In this document: one piece after another, positions 41,199 to 43,031 of the stretch
Position numbering within the stretch: the stretch's first letter is position 1
Layout: each line of letters opens with the position of its first letter
NCBI GenBank assembly: GCA_002327905.1
Contig: DCUY01000104.1
Span: 7,904-71,903, forward strand
DNA length: 64,000 nt
Direction: 5' to 3'
Origin: a candidate division WOR-3 bacterium UBA2202
GTDB lineage: Bacteria; Hydrothermota; 32-111
The notes under the pieces: model-generated
Databases searched by the model: none
Told to the model about the DNA's origin: nothing
The model's input: only the letters and a program-made list of their open reading frames with translations
Translations under genes and position numbers: made by a program

Positions 41199-42128
41199 CT
41201 ATTCTATTGTGGTATCGTTGTCGAAATACTTTGTAGGGTCTGTCTTGTCGTCGAAGAGGCGCACTTCATAGTGAAGGTGGGTTCCTGTGGAACGCCCCGT
41301 GGTGCCCATATATCCGATGAGCTGATGCCTCTTGACAATGTCGCCTTCTTTTACCGCAAACTTATTCAGATGCGCATAAACAGTGATGTATCCGTAGCCG
41401 TGGTCTATTTTCAGAGTCTTTCCGTATCCTGAAAGGTAATCAGAGAAAATAACTTTTCCGTCAGCCGGAGCATATACAGGAGGAGCCGCCTGATTTGCAA
41501 TGTCTATCCCCGTATGAAGTTCGCTTCTCCCGTTGAATGGGTCCTTTCTGTATCCGAATGGACTCGTTATTGTGCCCTGAGTAGGCATGACGGACGGTGT
41601 ATGCGTTACAAGGTCATATTCATTCAGAAGATTTTTATTCACGCTCTTTACATTCTTTGATTCGAAATCAATAAGGTTCTGCACCTGAAAGAGTCTCTTG
41701 TCCACATTCTCAATCAATCGCTTGGTTGACATATCAAGCATTGCAAGACGGTCATCATGAAAGTCATAACCTCCAAGACCCAACTGCCTGACATCCTCTG
41801 AAAGAACTGAAAGATTTGAGAGTGTTCTCAACCTCTTTTCATATTCGGTAATTTTGTTTATTTCAGTGAAATAATCATTTATTTTTCTGTTGCCGGTGTC
41901 AATTGAACTTATGAGATAATCCCTCTTTGCATAAATCCCTATCAGAGCATCAGGATTAAGATTGTTCAGCTGGGCAAAAATTATAATTGCGATTGAAGTT
42001 GTGAAGAAGATTGCAAAGACTGATAAGAGCATTGTCACCTGCTTCTCTGTAATCTCAAGTGTCAATGGCTTGCTGTTTGACTTGAATTCATTATCTATTA
42101 TAATAGTCCACTTCTTCATAAAAAACAT
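41199..42128 (-). CDS. M23-family (LytM-domain) peptidoglycan endopeptidase
   Basis: HTGIDIA...GTTGRSTGTHLHYEV Zn-binding motifs. The first ATG overlaps the predicted -10, so the real start may be the second Met at 42119. Confidence 0.8.
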   Translation of the reverse strand: MFFMKKWTIIIDNEFKSNSKPLTLEITEKQVTMLLSVFAIFFTTSIAIIIFAQLNNLNPDALIGIYAKRDYLISSIDTGNRKINDYFTEINKITEYEKRLRTLSNLSVLSEDVRQLGLGGYDFHDDRLAMLDMSTKRLIENVDKRLFQVQNLIDFESKNVKSVNKNLLNEYDLVTHTPSVMPTQGTITSPFGYRKDPFNGRSELHTGIDIANQAAPPVYAPADGKVIFSDYLSGYGKTLKIDHGYGYITVYAHLNKFAVKEGDIVKRHQLIGYMGTTGRSTGTHLHYEVRLFDDKTDPTKYFDNDTTIE

Positions 42129-42220
42129 TATATGGTTTTAATATTTCTTGTCAAGTCCTATTTATAAAAAAAATAAAAAAACAATATACCTATTGACAAA
42201 ATGGAAATAATAGGTAAAAT
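42127..42220. promoter_or_regulatory. Divergent consensus sigma70-type promoters (M23 peptidase leftward; mraZ/dcw rightward)
   Basis: Minus strand: TTGACAAG (42154..42149) - 16 nt - TATAAT (42132..42127). Plus strand: TTGACA (42193..42198) - 16 nt - TAAAAT (42215..42220). Confidence 0.55.
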
Positions 42221-42221
42221 A

Positions 42222-42246
42222 TGGAGAAAAATGGAGTAAATTGGAG
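42222..42246 (+). promoter_or_regulatory. Candidate MraZ operator: three TGGAG direct repeats at 10-bp periodicity just downstream of the Pmra -10
   Basis: aTGGAGaaaaaTGGAGtaaatTGGAGtttt, followed by SD-ATG of mraZ at 42251. Resembles the triple-repeat MraZ-box layout known from E. coli and Mollicutes. Confidence 0.5.
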
Positions 42247-42250
42247 TTTT

Positions 42251-42688
42251 ATGGAAACAAAAATGCGCTTTATCGGATTCAAGTTTGTAAATGTAGAGGA
42301 GAATGGCAGAATCTCCATTCCATCCGCTTACAGAGACGCTACTGACGCAAAGATTTTCTTCATTGTCCCCGGATCGAATAAGACTCTGCATTTATACCCT
42401 GAGGAATCATTTCTCAAACTTGAGGAGAAGATATCCAAGCTCGAATCGGAAGAGGACAGAAAAATCATCACTGACTATATCTATTCGAATGCAGTGTCCA
42501 TTAAGAGGGATTCAATGTGGAGAATATCCATTCCCCAGCATCTTATTGAATATGCATCTCTTAAAGAGAGTGTTAAGATTGTCGGAGGAAATGACAAGCT
42601 GGACATTTGGGATCCTAAGAGCCATGATGAGTATAATAAATCACTGCTCACTGAGGGAAGCGCCACATTTAAAAAGATAGGAATATAA
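42251..42688 (+). CDS. mraZ: Transcriptional regulator MraZ
   Basis: MRFIGFKFVNVEENGRISIPSAYRD, matching E. coli [24 protein letters not shown]; two-repeat MraZ fold; SD GGAG 5 nt upstream of the ATG at 42251. Confidence 0.8.
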   Translation: METKMRFIGFKFVNVEENGRISIPSAYRDATDAKIFFIVPGSNKTLHLYPEESFLKLEEKISKLESEEDRKIITDYIYSNAVSIKRDSMWRISIPQHLIEYASLKESVKIVGGNDKLDIWDPKSHDEYNKSLLTEGSATFKKIGI

Positions 42689-42689
42689 A

Positions 42690-43031
42690 ATGAAAAAAAC
42701 AATCTCCAAGAAGTCCACTCACATCCTCATAAAAATCAGCGGAATTGTCTCTCTGGAGGATGTAAGCGAGTTGAAAGAATCCTTGAGCGCGGTTCTGAAT
42801 AGTTCGCTTCCTGTAATTCTCGACATAAGGCAGGCAAAAGCCGTCCACTATAAGACAGGGCTTCTTTTAAGAGGCATGAGAAAGTGTTTTCTTTCAAGGT
42901 GTATTCCCCTGACAATTATATGCACTGACCCTTACATACTTTCGGTTCTATCGCTCTTTGACTGTGATGTCATGTATGGCACCACTAAAGATTTGAATTC
43001 AGCAAGAAACCTTGTAGAGATCAAATTCTGA
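42690..43031 (+). CDS. STAS-domain (anti-sigma-antagonist-like) protein inserted between mraZ and rsmH
   Basis: 113 aa; ILIKISGIVSLEDVSELKESLSAVLNSSLPVILDIRQAKAV... is SpoIIAA-like. Abuts the mraZ stop and rsmH start. Confidence 0.4.
   Translation: MKKTISKKSTHILIKISGIVSLEDVSELKESLSAVLNSSLPVILDIRQAKAVHYKTGLLLRGMRKCFLSRCIPLTIICTDPYILSVLSLFDCDVMYGTTKDLNSARNLVEIKF

What the first reader, a model, noticed from the sequence alone, without database searches (positions are those of the whole stretch)
42127..42250. Divergent near-consensus promoters and a triple TGGAG MraZ-box array in front of the dcw cluster
Between the M23 peptidase and mraZ genes lie two back-to-back promoters:
- TTGACAAG-16-TATAAT (minus strand; its -10 overlaps the first ATG of the peptidase ORF, implying use of the second Met and a near-leaderless mRNA);
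- TTGACA-16-TAAAAT (plus strand).

Immediately downstream of the plus -10 are three direct TGGAG repeats spaced exactly 10 bp apart (42222..42246), followed by GGAG and the ATG of mraZ. This reproduces the three-direct-repeat MraZ operator layout (TGGGN in E. coli, GTGG in Mollicutes) at the expected place. MraZ autoregulation therefore appears conserved in this lineage, with a TGGAG box.
Basis: partly seen in the sequence, partly recalled or inferred. Interest (0 to 1): 0.5.

Follow-up and report, generated by a model that had tools for sequence, protein, structure and literature searches.

The report
MraZ operator array at dcw promoter
The repeats are very probably the binding sites through which the cell-division regulator MraZ shuts off its own promoter in an uncultured WOR-3 bacterium: a well-known circuit, here with a slightly altered DNA box and a matching change in the protein.

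Summary
Three TGGAG copies lie exactly 10 bp apart (42222, 42232, 42242), and two near-consensus sigma-70 promoters face away from each other.

Comparison with about 15 relatives (candidate division WOR-3/TA06) shows a gap-free conserved block from the -35 hexamer to the mraZ start codon. It stays 78-98% identical where synonymous sites in mraZ are saturated.

The conserved unit is AAAWTGG-N3, not TGGAG. There are five in-phase boxes:
- box 0 lies in the -35/-10 spacer;
- box 1 lies between the -10 and the predicted start of transcription;
- boxes 2 and 3 lie in the 5' UTR, and box 3 doubles as the ribosome-binding site;
- box 4 contains the conserved ATG at 42251.

Database gene calls of 155 aa begin at the ATG of box 1. 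They are probably 10 codons too long, because one relative has an in-frame stop there.

This layout matches characterised MraZ operators, so autorepression by promoter occlusion is the best reading. Binding itself is untested.

The M23 peptidase gene is probably leaderless (TATAAT-N6-10-ATG in relatives).

One new point: the usual 5' G of the box is lost here, and base-contacting Lys13 is Asn. Two other non-Lys13 lineages also have ATGG-type boxes.

Overall this is an ordinary regulatory element with a modest lineage-specific variation.

The parts
41199..42119 (-). M23 (LytM-type) peptidoglycan metallopeptidase gene, read from the second Met (MKKW...). It is probably translated from a leaderless mRNA.
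   Evidence: Pfam Peptidase_M23, E 6.6e-34; NCBIfam hits to MepM, ShyA and DipM-type endopeptidases, all below the curated cut-offs. HxxxD and HxH motifs are present in the translation. The first ATG (42128..42126) lies inside the -10 and discriminator and has no counterpart in relatives. TATAAT-N6-8-ATG recurs in relatives, with N9 in L094 and N10 in L092.
42127..42132 (-). -10 hexamer TATAAT of the peptidase promoter.
   Evidence: 12 of 12 consensus match. ATTATA on the plus strand is kept in all relatives that carry the M23 gene.
42149..42154 (-). -35 hexamer TTGACA of the peptidase promoter, 16-nt spacer.
   Evidence: TGTCAA or AGTCAA lies 16 nt from ATTATA in relatives.
42155..42192 (.). 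A/T-rich spacer with long A-tracts between the two -35 elements. It may act as a shared UP-like element (inference only).
   Evidence: Sequence. It is always A/T-rich in relatives but varies in length and sequence, about 25 to 75 bp. TRF finds A-rich repeats at 42164-42186.
42193..42198 (+). -35 hexamer TTGACA of the mraZ/dcw promoter.
   Evidence: Invariant in 16 of 16 related sequences.
42198..42204 (+). Box 0: AAAATGG (TGG at 42202-42204), inside the -35/-10 spacer, 20 bp upstream of box 1.
   Evidence: TGG is kept in 15 of 16 relatives (AGG in L090). In L173 it lies 21 bp from box 1.
42215..42220 (+). -10 hexamer TAAAAT of the mraZ/dcw promoter. The predicted transcription start is about 42227 (A).
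   Evidence: Kept in 15 of 16 sequences (TAGAAT in L091). The transcription start is inferred from the usual 7-nt distance and was not measured.
42218..42224 (+). Box 1: AATATGG (TGG at 42222-42224), between the -10 and the predicted transcription start. Its ATG (42221) is the false start of the 155-aa database gene calls.
   Evidence: TGG invariant in 16 of 16. The next two bases vary: AG, TA, AA or AT. ATG 42221 abuts the -10. L094 has an in-frame TAG downstream of it.
42228..42234 (+). Box 2: AAAATGG (TGG at 42232-42234), about +6 in the 5' UTR.
   Evidence: AAAATGG is kept in 15 of 16 sequences (AATATGG in L090) and its ATGG in all 16. The following bases vary: AG, TA, AT or AA.
42238..42246 (+). 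Box 3: AAATTGGAG (TGG at 42242-42244). Its GGAG (42243-42246) doubles as the Shine-Dalgarno sequence, 4 nt before the start codon.
   Evidence: TGGAG invariant in 16 of 16. The 5' base is T, A or G, and G occurs only in the two relatives whose MraZ keeps Lys13.
42248..42256 (+). Box 4: TTTATGGAA (TGG at 42252-42254), containing the conserved mraZ start codon ATG 42251-42253.
   Evidence: ATGGA invariant in 16 of 16. Whether this is a true box or only a start codon plus a Glu/Asp codon that happens to be in phase cannot be decided here.
42251..42688 (+). mraZ, 145 aa (METKMRFIGF...). This is a divergent MraZ with E-x3-R and D-x3-R motifs, and Asn where M. genitalium has Lys13.
   Evidence: Pfam MraZ, E 3.9e-20. 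Below the NCBIfam TIGR00242 cut-off, 75 bits against 98. Alignment to PDB 9qlr, 9qlg and 1n0e places E16/N18/R20 opposite D11/K13/R15, and the second D..R motif is kept. The Met at 42263 is I, L, F or V in relatives, while the Met at 42251 is invariant. The homologue in L173 is called at 145 aa from the equivalent ATG.

Best explanation
The segment 42193-42256 is the promoter and operator of the dcw (mraZ-rsmH-ftsL-ftsI-mur...) operon of a WOR-3-lineage bacterium.

- A near-consensus sigma-70 promoter (TTGACA-16-TAAAAT) is interleaved with five direct repeats of the unit AAAWTGG-N3.
- All five repeats lie on one face of the helix, at about -24, -4, +7, +17 and +27 relative to the predicted transcription start.
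- By analogy with the solved M. genitalium MraZ-DNA complex, successive subunits of an MraZ oligomer each insert their cradle-like motif into a TGG major groove and bind cooperatively.
- That would cover the spacer, the -10-to-start region and the early transcribed region, exclude or trap RNA polymerase, and so repress mraZ and the downstream dcw genes. This is negative autoregulation.
- Box 3 also serves as the Shine-Dalgarno sequence, and box 4 contains the true start codon (42251).
- The divergent M23 peptidase gene has its own consensus promoter and is translated from a leaderless mRNA that starts at or next to its second ATG.

Shown here: the sequence features, their statistical rarity, their deep conservation at the DNA level rather than the protein level, and the equivalence of the layout with other mraZ loci.

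Inferred: MraZ binding, the direction of regulation, and the transcription start sites.
For: 1. Rarity. The phased array is unique in the window and far above chance.
2. Conservation. A gap-free alignment of 15 clade sequences plus outgroup L173 (anchored on the start codon; its -35 and box 0 lie 1 nt further upstream) shows TGG of boxes 1-4 invariant in 16 of 16 and box 0 kept in 15 of 16. The 3' half of each unit varies.
3. Constraint. The 63-nt promoter-operator block is 78-98% identical to relatives. Third codon positions of mraZ are 39-59% identical and first plus second positions 74-97%. The adjacent spacer is not alignable.
4. The constraint acts on DNA, not protein. Conserved columns follow a 10-nt period, not a 3-nt one. 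L094 has an in-frame TAG in the supposed N-terminal extension. ATG 42221 abuts the -10 hexamer.
5. The geometry persists in L173, whose MraZ is only 39% identical.
6. Positive control. 162 of 172 other mraZ loci have at least three in-phase NTG[GT] boxes within 200 nt upstream of mraZ. Most are (A)GTGG at 10-bp spacing, and the last box often doubles as the Shine-Dalgarno sequence.
7. Literature.
   - Three or four GTG(G/T) boxes with 10-bp period are reported. In M. genitalium the unit is AAAGTGT-N3 x4, the transcription start lies inside box 1, and binding is cooperative and represses (PMC12957436).
   - The B. subtilis box is GTGG[A/T]G-N4 x3 and is required for repression (bioRxiv 10.1101/2022.02.09.479790).
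   - B. cenocepacia has four 7-nt repeats with 3-nt spacers, downstream of the -10 and over the transcription start, as in E. coli (PMC7761207).
8. The cognate MraZ keeps both arginines (Arg15 and Arg86 equivalents) and the acidic partners of both DXXXR motifs.
Against: - There is no binding, footprint, transcription-start or expression data for this uncultured lineage.
- Lys13, which is essential for DNA binding in M. genitalium (K13A abolishes the gel shift), is Asn here. The canonical 5' G of the box is also missing, so recognition cannot be assumed to be identical.
- Box 3 and box 4 are each also explained by translation signals (the Shine-Dalgarno sequence and the ATG plus second codon). 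Their status as MraZ boxes is therefore not independently established.
- Box 0 is separated from box 1 by a unit that carries the -10 instead of a TGG.
- MraZ was reported as an activator in M. gallisepticum (cited), so the sign of regulation is an inference from position.
Confidence: 0.75

Rival explanations
1. MraZ does bind the array but activates rather than represses, or acts mainly on another step. This would resemble the activator behaviour reported for M. gallisepticum MraZ on overexpression.
For: The literature notes activator behaviour in one species (PMC12957436 introduction). Box 0 lies in the spacer on the same helical face, and A-tract phasing could bend the DNA.
Against: The boxes cover the -10-to-start region and the first ~30 transcribed nucleotides, which is the classical position for steric repression. 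All systems tested directly with reporters (E. coli, B. subtilis, M. genitalium) show repression. The promoter is already near-consensus and should not need an activator.
Confidence: 0.1
2. The 10-bp periodic A-tract/TGG array is bound by some other protein, or is an intrinsic bent-DNA feature of the promoter that is conserved for RNA polymerase. In this reading it has nothing to do with MraZ.
For: Phased A-tracts produce curvature. OmpR-family regulators also use direct repeats about 10 bp apart. No binding data exist. MraZ here lacks Lys13.
Against: An equivalent phased array with a TG(G/T) core lies directly upstream of mraZ in 162 of 172 loci from unrelated phyla. In several species that element has been shown to be the MraZ site. 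The invariant bases are the TGG triplets, not the A-tracts alone. The pattern occurs nowhere else in the 64-kb window.
Confidence: 0.1
3. The repeats are coding sequence: the 155-aa ORF starting at ATG 42221, as called in public databases, is the real MraZ. In this reading the conserved residues M..NG..W..ME reflect a conserved N-terminal peptide.
For: Homologues in the protein database are called at 154-155 aa, with M1, G5, W8 and M11 invariant.
Against: - L094 has an in-frame TAG in this stretch.
- The L173 homologue is called from the box-4 ATG at 145 aa.
- ATG 42221 directly abuts the invariant -10 hexamer, so it cannot lie on a transcript from that promoter.
- The invariant residues are exactly those encoded by the TGG triplets in three different codon phases, and the intervening residues vary freely.
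- Canonical MraZ proteins start a few residues before the first DXXXR motif.
Confidence: 0.03
4. The array is a chance low-complexity repeat in an A/T-rich intergenic region, or a set of tandem Shine-Dalgarno or ribosome standby sites.
For: GGAG occurs three times, and the region is A/T-rich.
Against: Shuffles give 0.07-0.19 expected hits. The array is conserved across lineages whose synonymous sites are saturated. GGAG is not conserved in boxes 1 and 2, which read GGTA in most relatives, and box 1 lies upstream of the predicted transcription start. There is no Rfam match.
Confidence: 0.02

Closest known systems
Bacillus subtilis MraZ binding repeats (MBRs): GTGG[A/T]G x3 with 4-nt spacers in the mra promoter
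   Same: The period is 10 bp. The hexamer core TGG[A/T]G is identical to this window's TGGAG, and relatives have TGGTA. The repeats lie within the mraZ promoter, form the only triple repeat in the genome or window, and are required for MraZ-dependent repression.
   Different: The 5' G is replaced by A or T here. There are five in-phase boxes rather than three. The last boxes overlap the Shine-Dalgarno sequence and the start codon. MraZ has Asn instead of Lys at the Lys13 position.
Mollicutes MraZ operator (M. genitalium / M. gallisepticum): AAAGTG[T/G]-N3, 3-4 copies; cryo-EM complexes 9qlr, 9qlg and related entries
   Same: The unit is a 7-nt box plus a 3-nt spacer with an AAA 5' flank. There are four contiguous boxes, and the transcription start lies in or next to box 1. 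Arg15, Arg86 and their acidic partners are conserved, and one subunit is expected to bind per box, cooperatively.
   Different: The core is WTGG, not GTGT or GTGG. Lys13 is Asn. There is an extra box inside the -35/-10 spacer. The 5' UTR is very short, so the operator merges with the translation signals.
E. coli Pmra operator (three direct repeats; TGGGN is the finding's wording and my recollection) and the Burkholderia cenocepacia operator (four 7-nt repeats with 3-nt spacers)
   Same: Direct repeats with 10-bp period lie immediately downstream of the -10 and over the transcription start, giving autorepression of the proximal dcw genes.
   Different: The boxes in those species are G-rich (TGGG or GTG). 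In B. cenocepacia the transcription start lies 100 bp upstream of mraZ, whereas here the leader is predicted to be about 24 nt. The primary E. coli paper (Eraso et al. 2014) could not be read here.
ATGG-type arrays upstream of mraZ in two other lineages seen here: the 'TSGKR' MraZ clade (L176-L178) and the 'NETGR' MraZ (L174)
   Same: AATGG(T) boxes at 10-bp spacing lie just after the -10. None has a 5' G, and MraZ lacks Lys at position 13.
   Different: These lineages have three boxes only, different replacement residues (Gly with Lys at position 14, or Thr) and longer leaders.

Membership tests
MraZ operator (MraZ boxes / MBRs) | Three or more direct repeats with a 10-bp (one helical turn) period | tested here: met
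   TGG lies at 42202, 42222, 42232, 42242 and 42252. TRF reports period 10 and 4.9 copies. The array is unique in the window, with 0.07 expected.
MraZ operator (MraZ boxes / MBRs) | Located directly upstream of mraZ, at or just downstream of the -10 and around the transcription start of the dcw promoter | tested here: met
   The boxes lie at about -24, -4, +7, +17 and +27 relative to the start predicted from TAAAAT 42215-42220. The position agrees with PMC12957436 and PMC7761207. The transcription start itself is predicted, not measured.
MraZ operator (MraZ boxes / MBRs) | Major-groove core TG(G/T) in every box | tested here: met
   TGG is invariant in boxes 1-4 in 16 of 16 related sequences and in box 0 in 15 of 16. 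The cryo-EM signature is TGT/G.
MraZ operator (MraZ boxes / MBRs) | A G preceding the core (GTG(G/T)), as in the published cross-phylum consensus | tested here: not met
   The 5' base is A or T in every box of every relative whose MraZ has Asn at position 13. G appears only in L094 (box 3) and L173 (boxes 1 and 3), whose MraZ keeps Lys13. I treat this as a frequent feature rather than a defining one, because the structure-defined signature is TGT/G and ATGG boxes occur sporadically in Lys13 loci.
MraZ operator (MraZ boxes / MBRs) | Conservation of the repeats in related genomes | tested here: met
   The geometry is kept down to 39% MraZ identity.
MraZ operator (MraZ boxes / MBRs) | Specific, cooperative binding by the cognate MraZ, and MraZ-dependent repression | not testable with these tools
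   This needs gel-shift, footprint and reporter assays.
MraZ protein family (PF02381, tandem SpoVT/AbrB-like domains) | Two MraZ domains, each with a DXXXR motif (Asp11/Arg15 and Asp82/Arg86 in M. genitalium) | tested here: met
   Pfam finds two stretches, E 3.9e-20. The motifs are E16-x3-R20 and D-x3-R in the PDB alignments. The score is below the NCBIfam equivalog cut-off, 75 bits against 98.
MraZ protein family (PF02381, tandem SpoVT/AbrB-like domains) | Base-contacting Lys13 | tested here: not met
   It is Asn (EENGR) in the window and in all close relatives, and Lys only in L094/P0004 and L173/P0008.
Leaderless mRNA (M23 peptidase gene) | Start codon at or within a few nucleotides of the transcription start, with no Shine-Dalgarno sequence | tested here: inconclusive
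   TATAAT-N7-ATG in the window and N6-8 in all but two relatives (N9 in L094, N10 in L092), with no purine-rich Shine-Dalgarno sequence. Four of the 15 near-consensus promoters in the window show the same geometry. The transcription start was not measured.

The most novel reading that the evidence does not exclude
The WOR-3 element may record a co-evolved change of MraZ specificity. The base-contacting Lys13 was replaced by Asn, and in step every box lost its 5' G (GTGG became A/T-TGG).

Support within the clade: the two members that keep Lys13 (L094, L173) still have one or two GTGG boxes.

Support outside the clade:
- Two other non-Lys13 lineages have all-ATG(G/T) arrays: the TSGKR clade and the NETGR protein.
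- A DAQRR lineage has AGGGA boxes.
- All 140 or so Lys13 loci examined keep at least one GTGG.

If this holds, residue 13 is a specificity determinant that reads the base 5' of the TG(G/T) core. Lys would pair with G and Asn with A. MraZ operators could then be predicted from the protein sequence.
Probability: 0.4. Interest if true: 0.45.

Novelty: new member of a known kind. Interest (0 to 1): 0.3.

Why it matters
- It extends the MraZ-operator autoregulatory circuit, in unchanged geometry, to an uncultured candidate phylum (WOR-3/TA06). This supports the view that the circuit is ancient and nearly universal.
- It corrects a systematic annotation error: 155-aa MraZ gene calls in this clade begin at an ATG created by the operator box next to the -10.
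- It gives a concrete, testable hypothesis about how MraZ reads the base 5' of its core (Lys13 with G, Asn13 with A). That complements the 2026 cryo-EM structure.
- It adds evidence that near-consensus promoters and leaderless mRNAs are common in this lineage.

None of this overturns current understanding.

Tried and rejected
- Coding N-terminal extension (155-aa ORF). Rejected because of the in-frame TAG in L094, the -10 abutting the ATG, and conservation with a 10-nt rather than a 3-nt period.
- Start codon at 42263 (MRFIGF). Rejected because this codon is I, L, F or V in relatives, while the ATG at 42251 is invariant.
- TGGAG as the box. Rejected because boxes 1 and 2 read TGGTA in most relatives.
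- The in-phase 'AGG' at 42212-42214, next to the -10, as a sixth box. Not retained: the T is absent, and L173 has AG there.
- RNA element in the leader. No Rfam match at E <= 1.
- The plus-strand TTGACT-16-TATAAT at 42077-42104, inside the peptidase gene, as a second mraZ promoter. It is not conserved in L093, L001 or L002, so it is treated as chance.
- L089 (the P0004 contig). The 5' end of this 1.7-kb contig does not align upstream of box 3 and gives no usable promoter. L094 was used instead.
- Eraso et al. 2014, the primary E. coli paper, is not in the library. The E. coli layout was taken from secondary descriptions.
- A literature search for a prior description of ATGG-type boxes or of Lys13 covariation found nothing relevant. 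This is not proof of absence.
- The Fisher test on de-duplicated motif and box combinations (p = 5e-4) is not phylogenetically corrected. Only about three independent non-Lys13 lineages exist in my sample.
Full report
**1. What is in the sequence**

- TGGAG occurs at 42222, 42232 and 42242.
- TTGACA-16-TATAAT lies on the minus strand (42154..42127, 12 of 12 matches).
- TTGACA-16-TAAAAT lies on the plus strand (42193-42220, 11 of 12 matches).
- The triple repeat is unique in the 64-kb window. Expected hits are 0.19 with up to two mismatches allowed, and 0.07 for the looser WTGG-N6-WTGG-N6-WTGG.
- Tandem Repeats Finder calls a period-10 array at 42198-42246 with consensus AAAATGGAGA.
- The window (37.6% G+C) contains 15 promoter-like sites with at least 11 of 12 matches, against 2.6 expected. 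Near-consensus sigma-70 promoters are therefore a real property of this genome.
- The flanking genes are MraZ (Pfam, 3.9e-20), an M23 peptidase (6.6e-34), RsmH, an FtsL-like ORF, FtsI and MurE.

**2. Lineage and relatives**

The closest MraZ proteins come from MAGs labelled 'bacterium', candidate division WOR-3 and TA06. WOR-3 is Caldifarciminota in the NCBI taxonomy.

Synteny is conserved across the clade: HIT, methyltransferase, Dus and M23 on one side; mraZ, a 113-aa ORF, rsmH, ftsL and ftsI on the other. This also holds in the outgroup L173, whose MraZ is only 39% identical.

**3. Conservation**

A gap-free alignment of 15 clade sequences, with outgroup L173 added on the start-codon anchor (its -35 and box 0 sit 1 nt further upstream), gives this conserved block:

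CCTATTGACAAAATGGAnnnAAnnGGTAAAATATGGnnAAAAATGGnnnAAAWTGGAGnnnnATGGAW

- The TGG of boxes 1-4 is invariant in 16 of 16 sequences. Box 0, inside the -35/-10 spacer, is kept in 15 of 16.
- Variation is concentrated in the 3' half of each 10-nt unit.
- Pooled information content peaks at A-A-W-A-T-G-G.
- This 63-nt block is 78-98% identical to the window. Third codon positions of mraZ are 39-59% identical, and first plus second positions are 74-97%.
- The A/T-rich spacer between the two -35 elements varies in length and cannot be aligned.

**4. The conservation is at the DNA level, and the start codon is 42251**

Public gene calls for this clade are 154-155 aa and begin at the ATG of box 1. Several observations argue against that start.

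- The 'conserved residues' of the extension (M1, G5, W8, M11-E12) are exactly the TGG triplets read in three codon phases.
- L094 has an in-frame TAG in the extension.
- The L173 gene is called from the box-4 ATG.
- ATG 42221 directly abuts the -10 hexamer.
- The Met at 42263 is replaced by I, L, F or V in relatives, while the ATG at 42251 is invariant.

mraZ is therefore 42251-42688 (145 aa). The GGAG of box 3 is its Shine-Dalgarno sequence, 4 nt upstream. This also explains why the AG of box 3 is invariant, whereas boxes 1 and 2 read TGGAG in the window and its closest relatives (box 2 is also TGGAT or TGGTA there) and TGGTA in the more distant ones.

**5. Comparison with other mraZ loci and with the literature**

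Among 172 fetched mraZ loci, mostly Bacillota and Patescibacteria, 162 have at least three in-phase NTG[GT] boxes within 200 nt upstream of mraZ. Most are (A)GTGG-N6, and the last box often doubles as the Shine-Dalgarno sequence.

Published operators have the same layout:
- Cross-phylum consensus: three GTG(G/T) boxes with 6-nt spacers.
- M. genitalium: AAAGTGT-N3 x4, with the transcription start inside box 1. Binding is cooperative and represses. Lys13, Arg15 and Arg86 contact the TGT/G signature, and Lys13 can also reach the preceding G (PMC12957436).
- B. subtilis: GTGG[A/T]G-N4 x3, required for repression (bioRxiv 10.1101/2022.02.09.479790).
- B. cenocepacia: four 7-nt repeats with 3-nt spacers, downstream of the -10 and over the transcription start, as in E. 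coli (PMC7761207).

The window's element fits this layout. Relative to the predicted start (about 42227), the boxes lie at about -24, -4, +7, +17 and +27.

**6. Mechanism**

The best-supported reading is that an MraZ oligomer binds the in-phase boxes cooperatively on one face of the DNA. That would occlude the core promoter and the initial transcribed region, repressing mraZ and the downstream dcw genes.

- Binding, the sign of regulation and the transcription starts are inferred, not shown.
- Boxes 3 and 4 also carry translation signals, so their status as protein-binding boxes is less certain than that of boxes 0-2.

**7. What differs from the canonical system**

The canonical 5' G of the box is A or T here. 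The MraZ residue aligned with Lys13 is Asn: EENGR, against DxKxR in the M. genitalium and M. pneumoniae chains. Arg15, Arg86 and the acidic residues are kept.

- Within the clade, the only two Lys13 proteins have GTGG at box 3 (L094) or at boxes 1 and 3 (L173).
- Outside the clade:
  - a 'TSGKR' MraZ clade has AATGGT x3 in three members (L176-L178);
  - a 'NETGR' MraZ (L174) has AATGG, AATGG and AATGT;
  - a 'DAQRR' MraZ (L175) has AGGGA x3.
- With one algorithm applied to all loci, no non-Lys13 locus has a 5'-G box. Every Lys13 locus in which a phased triple was found has at least one.

This suggests that residue 13 covaries with the base 5' of the core. The caveats are that only about three independent lineages support it, that the loci were partly selected by a peptide pattern containing [NK]GR, and that there is no phylogenetic correction.

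**8. The divergent peptidase promoter**

In all but two relatives that carry the M23 gene, ATTATA (the reverse complement of TATAAT) lies 6-8 nt from the CAT (the reverse complement of ATG) of an MK(K/R)... start; the distance is 9 nt in L094 and 10 nt in L092. T/AGTCAA lies 16 nt further on, and there is no Shine-Dalgarno sequence.

The window's extra upstream ATG (42128..42126) is not conserved. The second Met (42119) is therefore the start, and the mRNA is leaderless or has a leader of one or two nucleotides.

Four of the 15 near-consensus promoters in the window have an ATG 6-8 nt after the -10, including a DnaJ-like gene. Leaderless mRNAs therefore look common in this genome.

**9. Verdict**

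- the box is WTGG, not TGGAG;
- there are five boxes, not three;
- the start codon lies inside box 4.

This is a new member of a well-known kind of regulatory element. The modest lineage-specific variation (loss of the 5' G together with Lys13-to-Asn) yields a testable specificity hypothesis.

Noticed in passing
window 42690-43031 (+): A 113-aa ORF is wedged between mraZ and rsmH. It is conserved at the same position (113-116 aa) in every WOR-3 relative, including the 39%-identity outgroup L173. It has no Pfam family and no meaningful NCBIfam family. A single-sequence AlphaFold model (pLDDT 65, only one of five models converged) gives weak Foldseek matches over most of its length to STAS / anti-sigma-antagonist proteins (RsbV, RsbS, SpoIIAA, MlaB; TM 0.5-0.6, no E <= 0.001). 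A STAS-like protein inside the dcw cluster would be unusual, but this assignment is tentative.
   Followed up: partly
window 60206(-), 42154(-), 25973(-), 22148(-): Four of the 15 near-consensus sigma-70 promoters in the window are followed by an ATG only 6-8 nt after the -10 hexamer. One precedes a DnaJ-like ORF (MKNYYEILNV...). Leaderless mRNAs therefore appear frequent in this genome.
   Followed up: partly
protein database entries P0001-P0006; window 42221-42250: Gene callers systematically start MraZ of this clade at the ATG formed by operator box 1, giving 154-155 aa. This is a probable 10-codon over-extension, and it produces a spurious 'conserved' N-terminal peptide MxKNGxxWSxME.
   Followed up: yes
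L176:1400-1500, L177:90-186, L178:890-1000; L174:860-966; L175:1390-1500: Other MraZ lineages that lack Lys13 have non-GTGG arrays. The 'TSGKR' clade has AATGGT x3 right after the -10, the 'NETGR' protein has AATGG, AATGG and AATGT, and the 'DAQRR' protein has AGGGA x3, all at 10-bp spacing.
   Followed up: partly
L087:671-1494 and L088:228-990: In the closest relative (MraZ 91% identical) the M23 peptidase gene is not adjacent to mraZ. About 760-820 nt without a convincing ORF precede the conserved promoter-operator block, which suggests a rearrangement or insertion there.
   Followed up: partly
window 42077-42104 (+): A third near-consensus promoter-like site (TTGACT-16-TATAAT, 11 of 12) points towards mraZ from inside the 5' end of the peptidase coding region. 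It is not conserved in L093, L001 or L002 and is probably chance.
   Followed up: yes
L003 (DYMB01000007.1): A MAG labelled 'Acetofilamentum sp.', a genus of Bacteroidota, carries the same WOR-3-type locus: the same synteny and the same promoter-operator block. The taxonomic label of that MAG looks wrong.
   Followed up: no
window 30929(+)/30989(-), 22057(+)/22148(-), 31888(-)/32269(+): Further pairs of near-consensus promoters on opposite strands lie close together elsewhere in the window (60, 91 and 381 nt between their -35 hexamers). Their relative orientation and the genes they serve were not examined.
   Followed up: no
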